Sequence record: OZ035796.1
Strand: one strand, 5' to 3'
From: Felixounavirus NRG857CP1
Length of the DNA: 64,000 nt
The notes beneath the pieces were generated by a model that worked only from the letters and a program-made list of their open reading frames with translations, did not search any database and had not been told where the DNA came from. Positions 5,785-58,767 of the stretch are shown in pieces (positions within the stretch are counted from its first letter, which is position 1; every line of letters begins with the position of its first letter). Both the position numbers and the translations under genes were made by a program.

Positions 5785-6084
5785 TTAATCTGCCAACCTT
5801 AAATTAAAATTAACACCAAATTTTTCACATACTTCCAACATATACTCAAGGGAAACATTCCCAGTGAGGTGGATTATGTTGGATACACGAGCCTGAGAGA
5901 TACCACAAATTTTAGCAACTTGCTCTTGAGAAAGACCTCTGGATTTAATCTCTCTCTTAAAACGATGTGCAACGAAGTCTCTCATTTCGTCTACATCCAT
6001 TGGACAAATATAACTCTCCATTTCAGCCTCTCTATCAGCCTCCCAATCATCTTGTGGGGCATAAGGGTCAAAAACCTCATTCAT
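5785..6084 (-). CDS. helix-turn-helix (XRE/Cro-like) DNA-binding protein
   Basis: HTH-like segment LSQEQVAKICGISQARVSNIIHL; start moved to the internal ATG at 6082-6084 preceded by GGAAGAAGAAAGA. Confidence 0.5.
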   Translation of the reverse strand: MNEVFDPYAPQDDWEADREAEMESYICPMDVDEMRDFVAHRFKREIKSRGLSQEQVAKICGISQARVSNIIHLTGNVSLEYMLEVCEKFGVNFNLRLAD

Positions 6085-6289
6085 CTTTCTTCTTCCGTTT
6101 GCGTGAAGTGTCAATCAATGAATCTATGTTTGTAGCTCTAACCTTTTCACGTTCATCGTTAAGATAATCATCAAGAGCCTTTTCAATCTGTGAATCATCT
6201 TGACAGATAACTGTAAAGACTGTAAATCCGTCTTTATCGTCAATTATCTTACCATAACCGCTTCTGGGATGTAACTTTTTAAGAGCCAT
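6077..6289 (-). CDS. hypothetical protein
   Basis: 70-aa ORF; 8-nt overlap with the downstream gene. Confidence 0.4.
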   Translation of the reverse strand: MALKKLHPRSGYGKIIDDKDGFTVFTVICQDDSQIEKALDDYLNDEREKVRATNIDSLIDTSRKRKKKDE

Positions 6290-12907: not shown

Positions 12908-12967
12908 TTTTACTCCCTCTAAAATCATTAACCTCATACATTACTGCAAAAAATTATAAAAAGCAAG

Positions 12968-12996
12968 TTGACAATGCACTTGACAAGGTGTTAATC
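12968..12996 (+). promoter_or_regulatory. sigma70-like promoter candidate with tandem TTGACA and conserved TTGACAAGGTG box
   Basis: TTGACA(12968)-N6-TTGACAAGGTG; possible -10 TTAATC after a 17-nt spacer; divergent intergenic region. Confidence 0.4.
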
Positions 12997-13104
12997 TTTG
13001 CGAAGTGGGTTTTTACTTAAAAGGTTACTTAACAGTTTAACTATACAGATACTTTAAAACTCTTAAAAGATTATTTAATAGCTTTTAAAAAGCTTTAAAG
13101 TATA

Positions 13105-13121
13105 ACGTATAGAATACGTTA
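13105..13121. promoter_or_regulatory. perfect palindrome, operator candidate
   Basis: AACGTAT-AGA-ATACGTT in the divergent intergenic region. Confidence 0.35.
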
Positions 13122-13164
13122 AGATAAAAGATTAAAACTTAATAGTTACTTAAAAGAGGCTTAC

Positions 13165-42568: not shown

Positions 42569-43354
42569 ATGGGTATTGTAAAAATCATCAATGGTGATAT
42601 CTTTGCTGCATTTGATAAAGGTAAGTTTGACATCATTGGTCATGGTTGTAACTGCATGAACCTAATGGGCGCAGGTATCGCTGACAAGATTTCTAAACTT
42701 TACCCAAAAGCATATGAGACCGATACAGAAGTTTATCTCTATGCAGGTGGTATAGGTCACAAACCCTGTGAGAATTTACTAGGTAATTTCTCTGTAGCAC
42801 GCTTAAAACAAGGTCGTATAGCTAACCTTTACACTCAGCTTAAGACTGGTAAAGATGCCCGATACAGTGCTTTAGAGTCATCTTTGAAACAGCTTAACAG
42901 ATACTGTGAAGTCAATCAGTTGAAGAAAGTTGGTTTACCTATGATTGGTGTAGGTATCGGTGGACTTGACCCTCAAGCCGTCACAGTTATCATCAATCAG
43001 GTGATGAAGAGTGTAGATGTTTATCTATATGTCTATGAAGGAGAGATGTACCACAAGTTACTCTCAGGTTGGAAGAACTACTGTGAACCAGAATACTTTG
43101 CAGGTGTAGCAGTGTTCACAGATAACGCAGTTACCCTCTTCAGACGAAGAAAAGGTAAGATACATCAAAGTAACCCTCCGGTTGAAAAGATGTCTCTAAG
43201 TAACGCTCTAGTTACCCACCTGTCAAAGAGCAATCACAGAATTGCTGTAACATTTGGTAGTGATGCAGAAGCTTATATCTATGCAAGAACTGATGAGGAT
43301 ATTGAGGCAATCTTCTCTTCACCAGAAGTTACCTTCTTAGACGCAAAGAACTAA
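42569..43354 (+). CDS. macro-domain protein (ADP-ribose binding/hydrolase family)
   Basis: N-terminal IINGDIF...FDIIGHGCNCMNLMGAGIADKI resembles the macro-domain VQGDIT...NAAN...GGGGV-GAIH region as recalled; 261 aa with extra C-terminal region. Confidence 0.55.
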   Translation: MGIVKIINGDIFAAFDKGKFDIIGHGCNCMNLMGAGIADKISKLYPKAYETDTEVYLYAGGIGHKPCENLLGNFSVARLKQGRIANLYTQLKTGKDARYSALESSLKQLNRYCEVNQLKKVGLPMIGVGIGGLDPQAVTVIINQVMKSVDVYLYVYEGEMYHKLLSGWKNYCEPEYFAGVAVFTDNAVTLFRRRKGKIHQSNPPVEKMSLSNALVTHLSKSNHRIAVTFGSDAEAYIYARTDEDIEAIFSSPEVTFLDAKN

Positions 43355-43422
43355 GAAACTCTGTAGGATATCCACAATAGCCTAAGCCTTTCTTATCTGG
43401 TAAATTTTTCAGGTAAGGAGGG

Positions 43423-43610
43423 CTTTTTCATTTCAGATTTGTGCAGGTAGATTTCTCTACAGAACTCTATAGAGAAAATTTTGAACTCCAAAGAGAAAAT
43501 TCATTTTCAAACTGTGCAGGTAATCTCCAAAGAGCTTTTTCATTTTCAAAACGTGCAGACCCCGCTCAGGTCGGGCAAGAAAAATCATTTTAGAATTGTG
43601 CAGGTAGGTT
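43423..43610. repeat. four direct repeats (~28 nt, core TCATTTTCA-A-TGTGCAGGTA)
   Basis: Copies near 43428, 43501, 43550 and 43586 with irregular spacing (73, 49, 36 nt); non-coding. Confidence 0.6.
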
Positions 43611-43626
43611 TTTATAGACAGCCAGC

Positions 43627-43661
43627 CCAACCCCTCTCCCCCTCTTACTCCCCCTCTCCCC
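43627..43661. repeat. C/T-rich homopyrimidine tract
   Basis: CCCAACCCCTCTCCCCCTCTTACTCCCCCTCTCCCC; exceptional in this AT-rich sequence. Confidence 0.6.
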
Positions 43662-43782
43662 AAAAGTCAAGAGAAAAATTTGTAGCGGATTGAAAAATAA
43701 TTCTTGATTTGCGTTCTGTTTTGTGGTAGTCGTGCGCACCCGTTTCATTACAGTTTTGCCAAAAATATTTTTAAAATTTTTA

Positions 43783-43811
43783 TTGACTCTTTGAACGTGG
43801 TTATCTAATAT
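43783..43811 (+). promoter_or_regulatory. sigma70-like promoter of the small-gene array
   Basis: TTGACT - 17 nt - TAATAT, followed by the conserved GGGGAGGG-AATGACC-(T)TCCCC leader hairpin and AGGAGA Shine-Dalgarno. Confidence 0.55.
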
Positions 43812-43874
43812 TTACATCAACGGGGAGGGAATGACCTTTCCCACTAAATAAAATCCTAAACTGGAGATTCAAAA

Positions 43875-44063
43875 ATGGCATCAAGAAAAATTAAAGTTGG
43901 CGATGAGGTTAACATTAAGCACGAATACTCTTACAAAATGCTAACTATACGCTCTTATAAGGTTTATCAGGTGGAAGCTATCCACAAAGATAATACTTTT
44001 TCCTTAAAAGGGTATAGCGAACGTTTCCCTGCTGAACTCTTTGAGAAATGGAGCGCGAAATAA
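43875..44063 (+). CDS. small hypothetical protein (array gene 1)
   Basis: 62 aa; conserved leader TAAACTGGAGATTCAAAAATG. Confidence 0.5.
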   Translation: MASRKIKVGDEVNIKHEYSYKMLTIRSYKVYQVEAIHKDNTFSLKGYSERFPAELFEKWSAK

Positions 44064-44269
44064 TGCTTTACAGTCGTGAATTGATGGTTACAACTAACGT
44101 TAACACAAAGGTAAAACGTTTTTACATGCAAATTTGTGGCGTATGGTCTAGAATATCAGAAGCTGACTATTGCAACTATGTAGAAACAGCTATAAACTCT
44201 AATTGCTACCTTACAAGAAATACTAAGAATTTTACAAGGCAAACAGCGATTTACTATTACGATAAATAA
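44063..44269 (+). CDS. small hypothetical protein (array gene 2)
   Basis: TAATG overlap with upstream stop (translational coupling); 68 aa. Confidence 0.45.
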   Translation: MLYSRELMVTTNVNTKVKRFYMQICGVWSRISEADYCNYVETAINSNCYLTRNTKNFTRQTAIYYYDK

Positions 44270-44276
44270 AAAGTAC

Positions 44277-44312
44277 TTTACATGGGGCTTATAGTTCGAT
44301 AAAGTAAGCCCC
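44277..44312 (+). promoter_or_regulatory. promoter/hairpin module type B
   Basis: TTTACA - 17 nt - TAAAGT with GGGGCTTA...TAAGCCCC inverted repeat across the spacer; diverged copies near 44754 and 45360. Confidence 0.45.
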
Positions 44313-44359
44313 AGATAAAGAGCTTTACCAAATTAACCCTTAAACTAGGAGATTCAAAA

Positions 44360-44740
44360 ATGGCATATCGTGCACCTAAATTCATCAACAAAGACAACTT
44401 TCGCAACGCACTGGAGAAGTCACTTGATGAAAATTTTAAAGGCAACATTATCGTTGTTCACGCATTCAATTTTAAGTATGATGTAAACGGGAATAGAATC
44501 AACCATTACACGGCAACCATGTTAGATGGCACACTATCAAGTGAAAAAGCTGTACTGAATGCACTTGCTGGACGTGGTAAAAACCTGATAAAATGCGATA
44601 AGAGACGTTATCAGGGTGGCGCATATGGTTATGATGATGCTATTTATCATCTTGAAAATATGGGCTATCAAGTAGAAAAAGCTGGAGCATCACAAATCAT
44701 CGGCAGTGACGGCTATGTGACAATTTTCAAAATTAACTGA
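44360..44740 (+). CDS. hypothetical protein (array gene 3)
   Basis: 126 aa; conserved leader CTTAAACTAGGAGATTCAAAAATG. Confidence 0.5.
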   Translation: MAYRAPKFINKDNFRNALEKSLDENFKGNIIVVHAFNFKYDVNGNRINHYTATMLDGTLSSEKAVLNALAGRGKNLIKCDKRRYQGGAYGYDDAIYHLENMGYQVEKAGASQIIGSDGYVTIFKIN

Positions 44741-44835
44741 TAAAGTACTTTACAAGGGGCTTAAAAGTTGGTATCTTAAGCCCCAGATAAAGAGCTTTAC
44801 CACTAAATCAAGTCCTTAAACTAGGAGATTCAAAA

Positions 44836-46063: not shown

Positions 46064-46088
46064 TTTTAGTTTTAAAAACAAGTAAATT
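46060..46088 (+). promoter_or_regulatory. sigma70-like promoter candidate
   Basis: TTGATT - 17 nt - TAAATT followed by the GGGGAGGG-AATGA-CCTTCCCC leader hairpin. Confidence 0.5.
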
Positions 46089-46152
46089 ACTAATCAACGG
46101 GGAGGGAATGACCTTCCCCACTAAGTAAAATCCTTAAACTAGGAGAGTCAAA

Positions 46153-46683
46153 ATGAACAAGTTTAAAGCTATCAACTTCATTCGTTCAAATGCTGTAATG
46201 TCTAAGCCTGTAAAAGATACATATGAATTTCGTTGTAATGGGGTACACTTTGCAACCATCACTAAGTCAGAAAACGGGGCTTATTATGTACATCGTCGTA
46301 ATGTTGCAACCGTTGTAGTCTCTCACTTTATGCAAGCTGTAGCGGAATTATTACCGTTATTCTTAGAGATTTACTTAGATGAGTGTAAAAACGTTCACAA
46401 CCACGTTAAAAACCTTTTAAACGGTTATAAAATGGCTTATGAACGTTCTATCAAGTCACTAAACAAGTTTTACAATGCACCTGCAAATACTGTTTCAATG
46501 GCTTATGATGTAAACGGTGAGTTAGTTAGTCTCTTTAAAGTGGAAGAAATTAAACTGTATAATCTACGTCCTAGTGGTTACTCTAAGACTCTTGGTGAAG
46601 GTTTAACGTTCAATATCAAGAACTTAGAAAAAACTTTAAAAGATATTGAAAAAGATATTGACGAGACACTTAAAAGTCTGTAA
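46153..46683 (+). CDS. hypothetical protein (array gene 7)
   Basis: 176 aa; leader AGGAGAGTCAAAATG. Confidence 0.5.
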   Translation: MNKFKAINFIRSNAVMSKPVKDTYEFRCNGVHFATITKSENGAYYVHRRNVATVVVSHFMQAVAELLPLFLEIYLDECKNVHNHVKNLLNGYKMAYERSIKSLNKFYNAPANTVSMAYDVNGELVSLFKVEEIKLYNLRPSGYSKTLGEGLTFNIKNLEKTLKDIEKDIDETLKSL

Positions 46684-46686
46684 ATT
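46658..46686 (+). promoter_or_regulatory. sigma70-like promoter candidate
   Basis: TTGACG - 17 nt - TAAATT then the conserved leader hairpin; -10 overlaps the upstream stop codon. Confidence 0.5.
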
Positions 46687-46751
46687 GTCAATCAACGGGG
46701 AGGGAATGACCTTCCCCACTAAATAAAACCCTTAAACTAGGAGATTCAAAA

Positions 46752-47000
46752 ATGGCAACTATCCGCGCTACTGTTAACGAGTTCGGTTTTTCTTCTCTGG
46801 ATGTTAAATTTGACATTGCAGGCACTGATAACGCCTTTGAAATGGTGAAATGTCTTATCAGTCAGACCATCAAAGATTATAATCCTTCGGATGAGTTCTG
46901 GGAGGAAACAAAACAAGAAGTTCTCAAGGATGGTTATACTTATCACTATTGGGGAGAAAAAATCGTCTCCCTGTACTACAACAAACAAGATTATAACTAA
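46752..47000 (+). CDS. small hypothetical protein (array gene 8)
   Basis: 82 aa; conserved leader. Confidence 0.5.
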   Translation: MATIRATVNEFGFSSLDVKFDIAGTDNAFEMVKCLISQTIKDYNPSDEFWEETKQEVLKDGYTYHYWGEKIVSLYYNKQDYN

Positions 47001-47038: not shown

Positions 47039-47062
47039 AGCCCCTTAAAATGGGGCTTTTTT
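47039..47062 (+). terminator. rho-independent terminator
   Basis: AGCCCC-ttaaaat-GGGGCT followed by TTTTTT; an additional GGGGCT-attt-AGCCCC hairpin lies just upstream. Confidence 0.65.
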
Positions 47063-48706
47063 ACGTCTATGTAATAGCCTCTATTCAATCCTTTTCCTTT
47101 CCTTTCCAGAATCTATCCCACTGATTCAATAGAATCTTATCAGACCTTAAAAGCAATAACTCTATAGTCTACTCTATAACCTCTTATCAAATCAACTTAA
47201 ATAAAAGCCAATAACCCCAGAAAGGGGATGGCCCATTTAAACGCTCTATAAAGCTCTATAACAGCCTTATCAACCTAACTTAAGGGATTGCATTAACTCA
47301 CCCTTAAAAACCCTTTATAAAGCTTCTCAGAGCCTTAAAAGAATCTTATAAGGGTGTAAGCTTTATCATCTCATTAGTATTCTTGTGAATAACTAAACAA
47401 CCCCTTGATAGTCACTAAAAAGTATGTTATAGGGGGCTTTAAAGTTACTTTGAAGTAGCTTAAAAGTTACGTAAAAGAGGTTATAAAGTTACGTAAATGC
47501 TAGCCCCCTTAACATTTTCTTAACAATTTCTTAACAACCCCCTACATAGTTATGCTTGTTAGAGACTTGTTAGCCCCTTGTTAAATCTCTGTTAAGACCA
47601 CGTAAAAGCCTTGTAAGAACCTTTGACATAGCCTTAAAAGCTCCTGTAAAGCCCTATAAAGAGCTATCCATACAGTTGAGGGGTAGATACTAGGAAGAGA
47701 TTTAAAAGAGCTTACAAGGAGCTATAGAGAGCTTTTAAAGGGTATGTTTAGAGAATCACTAAGAAAGAGAGGGAACGATAAGAAAAGAGTAGTGACCATG
47801 TTAATAGCTTGTTAAAAAGATTAAACACTTGTTAAAAACTTGTTAATTATCTTAACAAAATAACTCTTAAAAATTAACTTGTTAGCTCTTGTTAGTCATC
47901 TGTTAAGATTCTGTAAAGCCCATGTATCAACTGTTAAGAAACTGTTAAGCCCTTGTTAGCTCTGTTAAGAATCTGTTAAGACCTTTGAAGAGTTGTTAAG
48001 AAGATGTTAGAACTGTTGAGAGATTGTTAATGATATTTTAAAATTTTGCAAAGTACTTGTAAGGGAGCTGTTAAGGGCTACCAAGCAGATATACATCTTC
48101 TACAGATATTTTTGAGTTCCTTCAAAGACCCTAAAAAAATGACTTGATATTCCTATTTTATAAAAATTTTAAAATTCTGAATAATTACCTATACAGTCTT
48201 TTAAAAATACAGGCATAAACAGGCTTATAAGATACCTTGTTAGTACCGTGTTAGACCTTGTGAGATAAGGTCTGTAAAGATATTCCTGTTAAGTTTGTTA
48301 AAACAGTCTATATAGAGGCTTAGTAATACCTAGTGAACACCTATAGAGGGTAACATAGCTGACATAATGGGTTACTGTTAAGTAACACAGATAACCTAGA
48401 GATTAAGAGGTGTATAGGGGGCTTCTAAGAGGGTATAGAGAGATGGTTAAGGTGATTGTATAGGCTGTTAAGAAGGCTTGTTAGAAGAGTGTTTAGAAGG
48501 GCTATACAGAGGGGCTATTAAGACCACTAGATAGTTACTAAGATACTATATAGTACTATATAACTATATATAGAGAGTAAGCTTAAGAAGGTTGTTAAGA
48601 AGGGTAGATATTTTATTCACATATGATGGTGACCCAGAGGTTGGGACAACCGATGAAATTTTATAAAAATTAAAAAGCCCCCAATTAAGGAGGCTCTTAA
48701 GATATT
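47063..48706. repeat. ORF-free ~1.6-kb island dense in short iterated motifs
   Basis: No ORF of 60 aa or more on either strand; dozens of (C)TTGTTAG / CTGTTAAG / GTTAAGA and CCTTAAAAG / CTATAAAGAGCT copies; lies between convergent transcription units. Confidence 0.7.
48675..48700 (-). terminator. rho-independent terminator candidate (minus strand)
   Basis: On the minus strand AGCCTCC-ttaatt-GGGGGCT followed by TTTTT, just downstream of the last minus-strand gene. Confidence 0.5.
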
Positions 48707-57952: not shown

Positions 57953-58029
57953 CTCTGTTTAGCTCAGCTTGGTAGAGCGTTCCGTTTGGGGCGGTAAGGC
58001 CGGAGGTTCAAGTCCTCCAACAGAGACCA
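57953..58029 (+). tRNA. tRNA-Pro (anticodon TGG)
   Basis: Hand-folded cloverleaf: 7-bp acceptor CTCTGTT/AACAGAG, D-arm GCTC/GAGC, anticodon loop TTTGGGG, T-arm GGAGG-TTCAAGT-CCTCC, encoded CCA. Confidence 0.7.
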
Positions 58030-58036
58030 AATTAAT

Positions 58037-58114
58037 GTTCCAGTAGACAAAACGGTAAAGTCACCACTCTTTCAAAGTGGATATTTGAGGGTTCAAATCC
58101 CTTCTGGAACGCCA
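58037..58114 (+). tRNA. tRNA-Glu (anticodon TTC)
   Basis: Acceptor GTTCCAG/CTGGAAC, anticodon stem CCACT/AGTGG with loop CTTTCAA, T-loop TTCAAAT, CCA. Confidence 0.7.
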
Positions 58115-58121
58115 GTTTTGA

Positions 58122-58194
58122 CAGAAGACCAATTACAGCAAACTTAATCTTATTCATCTGAAGCTAAATCGGACAAAGAAGAGATTTGGTCTGG
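58122..58194 (+). ncRNA. conserved stem element A1 (CAGAAGACCA...TGGTCTGG)
   Basis: 20-nt conserved 5' box CAGAAGACCAATTACAGCAA and downstream complementary TGGTCTGG; member of a 4-copy family with covarying stem bases. Confidence 0.4.
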
Positions 58195-58206
58195 TCATTA
58201 AGAATT

Positions 58207-58281
58207 GCGGGTATAGAGAAAGGGCGTCTCACATGTCTCATTAGCATGGTATCGGCAGGTTCGACTCCTGCACCCGCCTCC
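58207..58281 (+). tRNA. tRNA with CAT anticodon (Met or Ile2)
   Basis: Anticodon stem CATGT/GCATG with loop CTCATTA; T-arm GCAGG-TTCGACT-CCTGC; acceptor GCGGGT/ACCCGC. Confidence 0.6.
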
Positions 58282-58288
58282 AATTTTG

Positions 58289-58348
58289 CAGAAGACCGTA
58301 TGCAGCAATAAACTACTTTTTGCGGATAAAAGAAAAAACACGGTCTGG
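58289..58348 (+). ncRNA. conserved stem element A2 (CAGAAGACCG...CGGTCTGG)
   Basis: Same 5' box with A-to-G change matched by T-to-C in the 3' partner (covariation). Confidence 0.4.
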
Positions 58349-58359
58349 CAATGTATTAA

Positions 58360-58436
58360 GGTTAGGAAGCACATAAGGTATGTGCGGTCGCCTGTTAAGC
58401 GAATGGCACAGGGTTCGAATCCCTGACTAACCGCCA
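58360..58436 (+). tRNA. tRNA-Asn (anticodon GTT)
   Basis: Acceptor GGTTAGG/ACTAACC, D-stem GCAC/GTGC, anticodon loop CTGTTAA, T-arm CAGGG-TTCGAAT-CCCTG, CCA. Confidence 0.65.
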
Positions 58437-58445
58437 AATTTAAAT

Positions 58446-58533
58446 GTGTCGTTATCCCGTAGATGGTAGCGGTGGGGACTGTAAATCCCTTGTCATTGAG
58501 ACTCGGTAGGTTCGACTCCTACACGGCACACCA
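58446..58533 (+). tRNA. tRNA-Tyr (anticodon GTA), long variable arm
   Basis: 88 nt; acceptor GTGTCGT/ACGGCAC; anticodon stem GGGGA/TCCCT with loop CTGTAAA; long variable arm; T-loop TTCGACT; CCA. Confidence 0.7.
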
Positions 58534-58539
58534 AATAAA

Positions 58540-58616
58540 GGTTATGTAGTTTAACTGGATAAAATACTCCCCTGTCACGGGAGATGATGTGAGTTCAAGT
58601 CTCATCGTAACCGCCA
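58540..58616 (+). tRNA. tRNA-Asp (anticodon GTC)
   Basis: Acceptor GGTTATG/CGTAACC; anticodon stem CTCCC/GGGAG with loop CTGTCAC; T-loop TTCAAGT; CCA. Confidence 0.7.
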
Positions 58617-58677
58617 ATTTTGAGAGGGCTATTTAGCTCCTCCCTTAAAGAGTTCTTACGAGTATTCTTTAAAGGAG

Positions 58678-58754
58678 CAGAAGACCAATTACAGCAAGTA
58701 CGTATGATATTTTCAAGCCAATTTAATTTTGAAAAAATTTAAAACTTGGTCTGG
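58678..58754 (+). ncRNA. conserved stem element A3 (CAGAAGACCA...TGGTCTGG)
   Basis: Third copy of the conserved box with matching 3' partner. Confidence 0.4.
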
Positions 58755-58767
58755 CTCAACAAATTTA

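What the first reader, a model, noticed from the sequence alone, without database searches (positions are those of the whole stretch)
43423..43661. Four direct repeats and a homopyrimidine tract upstream of the small-gene array
Four copies of a ~28-nt unit (core TCATTTTCA-A-TGTGCAGGTA) with shrinking spacing (73, 49, 36 nt) are followed by a 35-nt C/T-only tract. Both features are unusual for this sequence and sit just before the first array promoter. The spacing is too irregular for CRISPR; a regulatory binding array is more likely.
Basis: seen in the sequence. Interest (0 to 1): 0.5.

Follow-up and report, generated by a model that had tools for sequence, protein, structure and literature searches.

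The report
Conserved binding-site repeats in Felix O1-like phages
Four same-direction copies of a 22-base motif in a non-coding gap of a Felix O1-type phage genome are real and are kept across a whole phage subfamily, so they look like docking sites for a DNA-binding protein, but what they do is not yet known.

Summary
The window is a Felixounavirus genome (100% identical over 43000-44400 to OZ035806.1). The four repeats are real: TCATTT(T)-N6/7-GTGCA cores start at 43428, 43501, 43540 and 43585, all on the + strand. The spacing is 73/39/45, not the reported 73/49/36. The motif occurs nowhere else in the genome.

The array sits in a 520-bp non-coding gap. Upstream are a macro-domain gene and its terminator. 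Downstream is the first sigma-70 promoter of the small-gene array. This layout recurs in Felixouna-, Susp-, Moogle- and Kolesnikvirus (Erwinia phage phiEa21-4) and in a more distant 88-kb contig.

The copies are islands of conservation (80-95% mean pairwise identity, against 52-59% in the flanks). Copy-specific features are shared between genera.

The C/T tract is real: 31 nt with one A, a perfect mirror repeat. It is polymorphic, because about a third of the distinct Felix-type arrays fetched carry an unrelated sequence there.

The element is not CRISPR, not a gene, not a structured RNA and not the genome terminus. The 580-613-bp terminal repeat lies 3.9 kb downstream.

Best reading: a once-per-genome array of protein-binding sites. 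The most likely role is an origin-type nucleoprotein site, with a transcription boundary or operator as a close rival. The function is inferred, not shown.

The parts
42569..43354 (+). Macro-domain ('putative phosphatase', Tk.4-like) gene, last gene of the long rightward operon. It is the conserved left neighbour of the element.
   Evidence: Pfam Macro domain, E = 3.7e-07. The same neighbour is present in ASO1A, phiEa21-4, Sf13, mistaenkt and L027.
43384..43425 (+). Rho-independent terminator of the upstream operon. Its T-run runs straight into copy 1.
   Evidence: 17-pair stem followed by TTTTCATTT. Annotated as a terminator in ASO1A, XTG1 and wV8. The fusion of terminator and copy 1 is kept even where the gene and terminator are a diverged allele.
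43428..43449 (+). Repeat copy 1: TCATTTCAGATTTGTGCAGGTA
   Evidence: Mean pairwise identity 89% among 26 distinct relatives.
43485..43495 (+). ACTCCAAAGAG box ahead of copy 2. A second copy (TCTCCAAAGAG) lies at 43524-43534 ahead of copy 3.
   Evidence: (family D1). Mean identity 84% and 91%.
43501..43522 (+). Repeat copy 2: TCATTTTCAAACTGTGCAGGTA
   Evidence: Absent in the ECML-1/L017 lineage, which keeps copies 1, 3 and 4.
43540..43561 (+). Repeat copy 3: TCATTTTCAAAACGTGCAGACC, the most divergent copy within the genome
   Evidence: 100% identical to copy 3 of a Suspvirus but only 59-77% identical to its own sister copies.
43585..43606 (+). Repeat copy 4: TCATTTTAGAATTGTGCAGGTA
   Evidence: Mean identity 95%, the best-conserved stretch of the region.
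43631..43661 (+). Homopyrimidine mirror repeat CCCCTCTCCCCCTC-TTA-CTCCCCCTCTCCCC. On the - strand it reads as a G4-type motif, GGGG-AGA-GGGGG-AGTAAGA-GGGGG-AGA-GGGG. It is a polymorphic neighbour of the array.
   Evidence: Sequence. Mean identity only 58%. About a third of the distinct arrays fetched carry the unrelated segment TGTCGCCATTTCTCACAAGGCTACCACATC instead.
43662..43713 (.). Second conserved block, AAAAGTCAAGAGAAAAATTTGTAGCGGATTGAAAAATAATTCTTGA. On the - strand, 43670-43665 reads TTGACT, a possible -35 of a leftward promoter that would point into the array.
   Evidence: 91% mean identity, nearly invariant columns. Unique in the window. At the same place phiEa21-4 has a 10-of-12 leftward promoter, TTGACG-18-TATACT. 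In this window the -10 would be TAAGAG, which is weak, so the promoter is inferred.
43760..43812 (+). A/T-rich upstream stretch plus the first sigma-70-type promoter (TTGACT-17-TAATAT) of the small-gene array
   Evidence: Annotated as a promoter in ASO1A. Duplex stability is in the lowest 0.5-1.2% of the window but is not the minimum.

Best explanation
Shown: this is a single-copy cis-acting DNA element conserved across the phage subfamily Ounavirinae. It has three to five (here four) same-orientation sites. Each site has two invariant blocks, TCATTT and GTGCA, about one helical turn apart. The element sits in the 520-bp non-coding region that separates the long rightward operon (nucleotide metabolism, rII, lysis, macro-domain gene) from the small-gene array driven by host-type promoters at the right end of the genome.

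Inferred, fairly confident: the sites are docking sites for a sequence-specific DNA-binding protein, probably phage-encoded, and together they form one nucleoprotein complex per genome.

Inferred, low confidence, but my preferred mechanism: the complex marks a replication origin of the iteron type. An initiator or loader would bind the four sites. Transcription from the flanking promoters (the rightward early promoter at 43783 and a possible leftward one whose -35 is at 43670-43665) would help open or prime the DNA.

The C/T mirror-repeat tract is a dispensable, polymorphic neighbour. It may tune the leftward promoter or act as a C-rich read-through stop, but it is not part of the core element.
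For: - The repeats are real and far above chance.
- The motif is unique in the whole genome.
- The paired motif is absent from bacterial genomes except as unrelated tandem repeats, with none in enterobacteria. In viral and metagenome collections the true homologues come from Ounavirinae-type contigs, mostly about 81-94 kb, plus short fragments.
- The syntenic position and the spacing are conserved: 73/39/45 in Felixouna- and Suspvirus, 75/41/45 in Mooglevirus, 37/37/39 in Erwinia phage phiEa21-4.
- The copies are conservation islands (80-95% against 52-59% in the flanks). TCATTT and GTGCA carry the full 2 bits of information over 22 copies from six lineages.
- Copy-specific features are shared between genera: copy 3 and copy 4 are 100% identical between Felix- and Susp-type phages, while sister copies within a genome are 59-91% alike. 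Each site therefore seems individually constrained.
- Copy 1 stays fused to the terminator even where the upstream gene and terminator are a diverged allele.
- There is no conserved ORF, no Rfam hit and no consensus RNA fold.
- For the origin reading: uniqueness fits a once-per-genome cis site. The direct repeats are asymmetric, as iterons are. Promoters flank the array on the downstream side. In the distant relative L027, five copies are followed directly by about 170 bp of A/T-rich TTAACA-word DNA, the classic iterons-plus-unwinding-region layout.
Against: - No binding protein has been identified. The only Pfam DNA-binding hit found among about 40 ORFs scanned is a Cro/C1-type HTH protein at 5785-6114, and that type usually binds palindromes.
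- The replisome is T7-like (PolA and a gp4-type primase-helicase), and no initiator was recognised. Such phages can start replication from promoters plus A/T-rich DNA, without iterons.
- A better unwinding region lies elsewhere. The divergent promoter gap at 12938-13164, next to the polymerase gene, and the terminal-repeat zone are the least stable DNA in the window. The stretch beside the array reaches only the 98.8-99.5th percentile.
- GC skew follows the direction of transcription and gives no information on an origin.
- DnaA boxes are not enriched here.
- The leftward promoter is weak in this window (-10 TAAGAG).
- No experimental data on this region were found in the papers searched. The Bas63 knockout screen has no intergenic scores.
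Confidence: 0.33

Rival explanations
1. Transcription boundary or operator array. A phage regulator would bind the four sites just past the operon terminator. It would either block read-through into the early small-gene array, or repress or roadblock a leftward promoter that would otherwise make antisense RNA over the upstream operon. This resembles the multi-site switch regions between divergent phage promoters, such as the phi29 p4 sites (from my own knowledge).
For: - The array lies exactly between a terminator and promoters, and copy 1 overlaps the terminator T-run in every lineage.
- The invariant block 43662-43713 holds a - strand TTGACT at the place where phiEa21-4 has a strong leftward promoter. 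This would put the sites about +30 to +210 downstream of that start.
- An HTH_3 protein exists at 5785-6114. Bas63 gene 35, labelled 'putative transcriptional regulator', scores as essential. I take it to be the counterpart from its position between the thymidylate synthase and ligase genes; this was not checked by sequence comparison.
- The C-rich, G-poor tract could serve as a Rho loading site for read-through RNA (sequence).
Against: - The sites are 177-355 bp from the rightward -35.
- None of the other promoters of the array carries the motif, so it cannot control the array as a whole.
- The leftward promoter is weak in this phage.
- The sites are asymmetric direct repeats, which is unusual for Cro/C1-type regulators.
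Confidence: 0.3
2. DNA-entry pause or anchoring site. It would mark the inner edge of a first-entering right-terminal segment, analogous to the injection stop signal of phage T5.
For: - The physical right end is at about 48082. The array therefore lies about 4.5 kb from it here, and about 7 kb from it in OZ035806.1 and UAB_Phi87. That is 5-8% of the genome.
- The array sits just inside the last host-type promoter of a block of small genes transcribed outward, as in the T5 left terminal repeat.
- The T5 stop signal is likewise a repeat-rich untranslated region (preprint 10.1101/866236, abstract).
Against: - Two-step entry has not been reported for Felix O1-type phages in the papers searched.
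- The element lies outside the terminal repeat, unlike in T5.
- It shares no motif with the T5 stop region, and DnaA boxes are not enriched.
- It is not known which end of the genome enters first.
Confidence: 0.07
3. RNA-level element: part of a 3' UTR, an antisense RNA, or a Rho-utilisation site. The repeats would be RNA-binding-protein sites and the C-rich tract the Rho entry site.
For: The C/T tract is strongly C-rich and G-poor on the + strand. A leftward transcript through the repeats is conceivable.
Against: - A strong intrinsic terminator precedes the repeats.
- No Rfam family matches.
- The consensus fold energy is -1 kcal/mol with no informative covariation.
- The tract is missing in about a third of the distinct relatives fetched.
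Confidence: 0.07
4. Packaging or terminus-related site: a terminase recognition site or part of the terminal repeat.
For: Short repeat arrays flank the termini of terminal-repeat phages such as T7 (my own knowledge). One GenBank record (Andreotti) begins inside the C/T tract.
Against: - The 613-bp terminal repeat of Ro111lw is identical at both ends of its record and maps to window 47503-48082.
- The SpeI sites of UAB_Phi87 predict terminal fragments of about 4431 and 2751 bp at that place. The published values are 4322 and 2819 bp (PMC4837284).
- The distance from the array to the terminus varies from 3.9 to about 6.6 kb between isolates.
Confidence: 0.03
5. Functionless remnant: decayed tandem duplication or a recombination scar between modules.
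For: Module boundaries fall inside the array. The ECML-1 lineage diverges upstream of copy 3, and there are two alleles right after copy 4.
Against: The copies are the best-conserved bases of the region, over genus-level divergence and with fixed spacing. A neutral remnant would decay like the flanks.
Confidence: 0.05

Closest known systems
Iteron-type replication origins (lambda ori, P1 oriR, iteron plasmids; T4 oriE with its early-promoter transcript plus iterons). Cited from my own knowledge.
   Same: Several asymmetric direct repeats of about 20 bp in one orientation. Unique in the genome. Non-coding. Flanked by promoters and A/T-rich DNA. Individual copies differ from each other and are individually conserved.
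   Different: The sites are spaced 37-75 bp apart rather than abutting. No cognate initiator gene has been recognised. No DnaA boxes are enriched. The least stable DNA of the genome lies elsewhere. Origin activity has not been tested.
Phage T5 injection stop signal (iss)
   Same: A repeat-rich untranslated region at the inner edge of a terminal block of early genes that use host promoters, 5-8% of the genome from the end.
   Different: The T5 iss lies inside the 10-kb terminal repeat and is built around DnaA boxes and palindromes. Here the element is outside the roughly 0.6-kb terminal repeat, shares no motif with T5 and has no DnaA-box cluster. Two-step entry is unknown for this phage group.
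Multi-site transcriptional switch regions between phage promoters (e.g. phi29 p4 sites; lambda operators). Cited from my own knowledge.
   Same: Three to five individually tuned sites in a promoter-bearing intergenic region.
   Different: The sites are direct and asymmetric, they lie far from the rightward promoter, and no regulator has been matched to them.
CRISPR array
   Same: Short repeats with intervening sequence.
   Different: The repeats are only 59-91% alike. The gaps are 17-51 nt and are conserved between genera. There are four copies at fixed orthologous positions.
Short-word repeat arrays at the termini of terminal-repeat phages (T7-type)
   Same: Such arrays exist in this genome (CTGTTAAG and CTTAAAAG words).
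   Different: They are at 47.06-48.68 kb, around the real terminal repeat, and use different words from the element studied.

Membership tests
CRISPR array | Near-identical repeats of 23-47 nt | tested here: not met
   The 22-nt cores are 59-91% identical to each other.
CRISPR array | Spacers of about 26-72 nt that differ between strains | tested here: not met
   The gaps between the 22-nt cores are 51, 17 and 23 nt. They are conserved across Felixouna-, Susp- and Mooglevirus.
Iteron-type replication origin | At least three direct repeats of about 17-22 bp in one orientation, unique in the replicon | tested here: met
   Four copies on the + strand, none elsewhere in the genome.
Iteron-type replication origin | Adjacent A/T-rich unwinding region | tested here: inconclusive
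   43741-43790 is at the 98.8-99.5th percentile of instability, but it doubles as the upstream element of a promoter. The minima of the window are at 48.1-48.5 kb and 13.0-13.1 kb. L027 has a 170-bp A/T-rich zone right after its copies.
Iteron-type replication origin | Cognate initiator (Rep/O-type) gene | tested here: not met
   None was recognised by Pfam or PHROGs among about 40 ORFs scanned. The replisome is PolA plus a T7 gp4-like primase-helicase. An unrecognised initiator is not excluded.
Iteron-type replication origin | Replication starts there | not testable with these tools
   This needs marker-frequency sequencing, 2-D gels or a plasmid origin assay.
Terminal repeat / packaging site | Coincides with the physical genome ends | tested here: not met
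   The terminal repeat maps to 47503-48082. This is consistent with the Bal31/SpeI data for UAB_Phi87.
T5-type injection stop signal | Lies in the untranslated part of the terminal repeat and has a cluster of DnaA boxes | tested here: not met
   The element is outside the terminal repeat. There are 2 one-mismatch DnaA boxes in 520 bp, against a background of 1.5 per kb.
T5-type injection stop signal | DNA entry halts there until early proteins are made | not testable with these tools
   No report of two-step entry for Felix O1-type phages was found in the papers searched.
Operator array of a transcription regulator | Sites overlap or adjoin the regulated promoter | tested here: inconclusive
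   The sites are 177-355 bp upstream of the rightward -35. They would lie downstream of a putative leftward promoter that is strong in phiEa21-4 but weak here.
Structured non-coding RNA | Conserved secondary structure or membership of a known family | tested here: not met
   No Rfam hit better than E = 1.3. Consensus fold energy -1.04 kcal/mol.
H-DNA / G-quadruplex-forming tract (C/T tract only) | Homopurine-homopyrimidine mirror repeat, or four G runs of at least 3 with loops of at most 7 nt | tested here: met
   There are 14-nt mirror arms around TTA. The - strand reads GGGG-AGA-GGGGG-AGTAAGA-GGGGG-AGA-GGGG. Whether the structure forms in the cell cannot be tested here, and the tract is absent in about a third of the distinct relatives fetched.

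The most novel reading that the evidence does not exclude
The array is the cis-acting site of a process not yet described for Felix O1-type phages. One option is a T5-like pause or anchor for the incoming DNA, which would define a right-terminal 'first-step' segment of host-takeover genes. The other is an iteron-plus-promoter origin bound by a still-unrecognised initiator family in phages with a T7-type replisome.
Probability: 0.1. Interest if true: 0.75.

Novelty: new member of a known kind. Interest (0 to 1): 0.42.

Why it matters
Felix O1-type phages are classic Salmonella typing phages. They are widely used as biocontrol and therapy candidates and as engineering chassis (e.g. Bas63). Even so, none of the papers I could search describes their origin of replication, their early-gene control or this non-coding region.

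A unique cis-element conserved across the subfamily is the obvious place to look for the origin or a master control site. It must be kept intact when genomes are refactored or rebooted. It also gives a simple probe for fishing out its binding protein. If it proved to be an entry-pause site or a new origin type, it would extend mechanisms now known only from T5 or T4.

Tried and rejected
- Genome terminus or terminal repeat: rejected. Ro111lw's identical 613-bp ends and the UAB_Phi87 SpeI map place the ends at window 47503-48082.
- CRISPR: rejected on repeat identity and on conserved 'spacers'.
- Protein-coding gene: rejected. Open frames occur on both strands, but they shift between genera (spacing 39 vs 41 vs 37) and are absent in L027. 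The annotated ORFs Sf13_gp58, mistaenkt_18 and wV8 gene 13 are probably spurious.
- Known RNA family or conserved RNA fold: nothing found. One of the eight sequences (L013) was taken at wrong coordinates, which does not change the result.
- DnaA-box cluster: not enriched in E. coli/Salmonella phages. Only in Erwinia phage phiEa21-4 is the 3' half of each unit (CTATGCACA) a one-mismatch DnaA box.
- Sigma-70 promoters inside the units: no consistent -35/-10 geometry in Felix-type phages. The hits in phiEa21-4 depend on its tighter spacing.
- By-eye comparison with IHF, Fis, CRP, Fur, LexA and MotA-box consensus sequences: no convincing match (my own inspection, not a test).
- Motif at the other promoters or elsewhere in the genome: none.
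- Host-genome counterpart: the paired motif in 185,579 species genomes gave only unrelated tandem repeats.
- Helical phasing: 73/39/45 puts copies 1, 2 and 4 roughly in phase, but 37/37/39 in phiEa21-4 does not, so no claim is made.
- Literature: no description of the element was found. One search was wasted by a loose term setting. The Bas63 knockout data hold no intergenic scores.
- Scans for a cognate DNA-binding protein among neighbouring small genes: no domain hits.

Full report
**Identity and setting.** The stretch 43000-44400 is 100% identical to Felixounavirus NRG857CP1 (OZ035806.1) and 89-99% identical to many Felix O1-type phages of Escherichia, Salmonella and Shigella. The finding lies in a 520-bp gap without genes, 43355-43874. 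On its left is a macro-domain gene (42569-43354; Pfam Macro). This is the last gene of a long rightward operon carrying ribonucleotide reductases, NAMPT, rIIA/B, lysin, polynucleotide kinase and spanins. It is followed by a 17-pair intrinsic terminator at 43384-43425. On the right is a sigma-70-type promoter, TTGACT-17-TAATAT at 43783-43811 (annotated in ASO1A). This is the first promoter of an array of small genes of unknown function, in which several further genes are preceded by repeated promoter-hairpin cassettes.

**The observation.** Four copies of a bipartite motif are present on the + strand, at 43428, 43501, 43540 and 43585. The 22-nt consensus with up to 3 mismatches, and the skeleton TCATTT-N7-GTGCAG, find nothing comparable elsewhere in the window. 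The expected number of skeleton hits with one mismatch is 0.40. The remaining 20 kb of the genome and a 2.6-kb segment that OZ035806.1 has in addition also lack the motif. The spacing is 73/39/45, not 73/49/36. The pyrimidine tract is 31 nt with one A (43631-43661), or 36 nt with three A. It is a perfect mirror repeat, and on the - strand it reads as a four-run G-quadruplex motif.

**Conservation.** A distant-mode search found the gap in 288 phage records. Erwinia phages of another genus matched only window 43500-43602, which is copies 2-4. Reading the homologous loci shows the same layout everywhere: macro gene, terminator, three to five copies, a variable low-complexity stretch, a sigma-70 promoter, then small genes. 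I checked this in Suspvirus (mistaenkt), Mooglevirus (Sf13), Kolesnikvirus (phiEa21-4, unit TCATTTTCAATTTGTGCATAGG) and an 88-kb viral contig, L027, with five copies.

A pattern scan for two neighbouring units found 31 viral contigs. All but two (a 10-kb contig, L019, and a 62-kb one) are 51-94 kb long, mostly 84-94 kb, and L019 is an unrelated 50-bp repeat. In metagenomes and in 185,579 species genomes, every other hit is an unrelated tandem repeat that fits the pattern by chance. None is enterobacterial.

The spacing is fixed within lineages: 73/39/45, 75/41/45 and 37/37/39. Among 26 distinct sequences the copies average 80-95% pairwise identity. The end of the coding region, the gap before the terminator, the spacer after copy 4 and the C/T tract average only 52-59%. 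Over 22 copies from six lineages, TCATTT and GTGCA carry the full 2 bits of information. Copies 3 and 4 are identical between Felix- and Susp-type phages, although sister copies within one genome are only 59-91% alike. Each site is therefore conserved for itself rather than homogenised with its neighbours. In the ECML-1/phiWec174 lineage the macro gene and its terminator are a diverged allele and copy 2 is missing, yet copy 1 is still fused to the terminator T-run.

**The C/T tract is separable from the repeats.** About a third of the distinct Felix-type arrays fetched, including VpaE1, carry an unrelated segment (TGTCGCCATTTCTCACAAGGCTACCACATC) in its place and keep the repeats unchanged. Immediately after it comes a second, nearly invariant block, 43662-43713 (91% identity), which is also unique in the window. 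On the - strand it holds TTGACT at 43670-43665. At the corresponding place phiEa21-4 has a 10-of-12 leftward promoter, TTGACG-18-TATACT. In this window the matching -10 would be TAAGAG, inside the purine-rich strand of the tract, so a leftward promoter pointing into the repeats is possible but weak.

**What it is not.**
- It is not CRISPR, for the reasons given under the membership tests.
- It is not a gene. Open frames exist on both strands, but they change frame between genera and vanish in L027.
- It is not a known or structured RNA.
- It is not the genome end. Felix O1-type phages have short direct terminal repeats: 608 bp in UAB_Phi87 by Bal31 and run-off sequencing (PMC4837284), 613 bp in Ro111lw (PMC6454146) and 581 bp in Pr103Blw (PMC8303462). 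The Ro111lw record starts and ends with the same 613 bp, and this maps to window 47503-48082. In UAB_Phi87 the SpeI sites around the homologous place predict terminal fragments of about 4431 and 2751 bp, against published values of 4322 and 2819 bp. The physical ends are therefore 3.9-4.5 kb to the right of the array, inside a 1.6-kb non-coding zone full of CTGTTAAG-type words.

**Mechanism.** What is shown is a unique, strongly conserved, non-coding array of asymmetric direct repeats with two invariant blocks about one helical turn apart. That is the signature of a protein-binding array. Because it occurs once per genome, and the other promoters of the small-gene array lack it, it is more likely a once-per-genome cis site than a general early-promoter operator.

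Of the once-per-genome functions, packaging is excluded by position. An origin of the iteron type fits the anatomy best: direct repeats, flanking promoters, and in L027 an adjoining A/T-rich zone. I rank it first. The support is thin, however:
- No initiator gene was recognised.
- The replisome is T7-like.
- The least stable DNA lies at the termini and in the divergent gap at 13 kb.
- DnaA boxes are not enriched.

A transcription boundary or operator role is nearly as likely. It would act as a roadblock behind the terminator, or control a leftward promoter. A Cro/C1-type HTH protein at 5785-6114 is the only candidate binder found. Bas63 gene 35, 'putative transcriptional regulator', scores as essential in a knockout screen; I take it to be the counterpart from its map position only.

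A T5-like entry-pause site is an attractive analogy. The array sits 5-8% of the genome from the right end, just inside a block of outward-transcribed genes with host-type promoters. It fails the sequence-level features of the T5 signal, and no biology supports it so far.

**Novelty and score.** No paper in the searchable library describes the element. Annotated records show nothing there, or only doubtful small ORFs. It is best filed as a new, unannotated member of a known kind, namely iteron- or operator-type binding-site arrays. It is of moderate interest: useful for anyone studying or engineering Felix O1-type phages, and only surprising if one of the less likely readings proves true.

Noticed in passing
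window 47060-48680 (terminal repeat at about 47503-48082): A 1.6-kb non-coding zone packed with short words (CTGTTAAG, CTTAACA, CTTAAAAG, CTATAAAG) and several tandem arrays. It holds the direct terminal repeat and the least stable duplex DNA of the window. Genes converge on it from both sides.
   Followed up: partly
window 44270-44330, 44742-44802, 46075-46159, 46680-46754: The small-gene array carries repeated cassettes in which a promoter (TTTACA-17-TAAAGT) sits inside a hairpin followed by a shared ribosome-binding region. OZ035806.1 has 2.57 kb more small genes inserted between two such cassettes, so the cassettes seem to mediate gain and loss of genes.
   Followed up: partly
window 43631-43661 and homologous loci (e.g. 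L037 VpaE1, L112 phiWec174): There are two unrelated alleles directly after repeat copy 4: the C/T mirror repeat, or TGTCGCCATTTCTCACAAGGCTACCACATC. They are distributed mosaically among otherwise similar phages. The second allele would give a better leftward -10 (TGG-TAGCCT).
   Followed up: partly
L009 (Erwinia phage phiEa21-4) 1489-1640: In this genus the 3' half of every unit (CTATGCACA on the - strand) is a one-mismatch DnaA box. The tighter 37-39-bp spacing also creates sigma-70-like TTGCCA-17-TAAAAT matches on the - strand. Neither holds for the E. coli/Salmonella phages.
   Followed up: partly
window 5785-6114 (- strand): A 109-aa Cro/C1-type HTH protein (Pfam HTH_3, E = 6e-10). Bas63 gene 35, 'putative transcriptional regulator', which I take to be its counterpart from map position only, behaves as essential in a published knockout screen. 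It is the only recognisable sequence-specific DNA-binding protein found among about 40 ORFs scanned.
   Followed up: no
window 12938-13164: A divergent promoter gap between the DNA polymerase gene (- strand) and the rightward operon. It is very A/T-rich, has CTTAAAAG-type words and coincides with the GC-skew turning point. It is an alternative candidate for the origin.
   Followed up: no
L003 (phage Andreotti, MN850610.1) record positions 1-23: This GenBank record starts inside the C/T tract and is about 4 kb shorter than its relatives. This suggests an assembly break at the homopyrimidine run rather than a real end.
   Followed up: no
L010 760-1038 (Sf13_gp58), L011 879-1187 (mistaenkt_18), L004 1587-1751 (wV8 gene 13): Small ORFs are annotated across the repeat array in public records. 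They lie on different strands and in different frames, and are probably not genes.
   Followed up: yes
window 57953-63585: A cluster of 25 tRNA genes on the + strand, typical of Felix O1-type phages.
   Followed up: no
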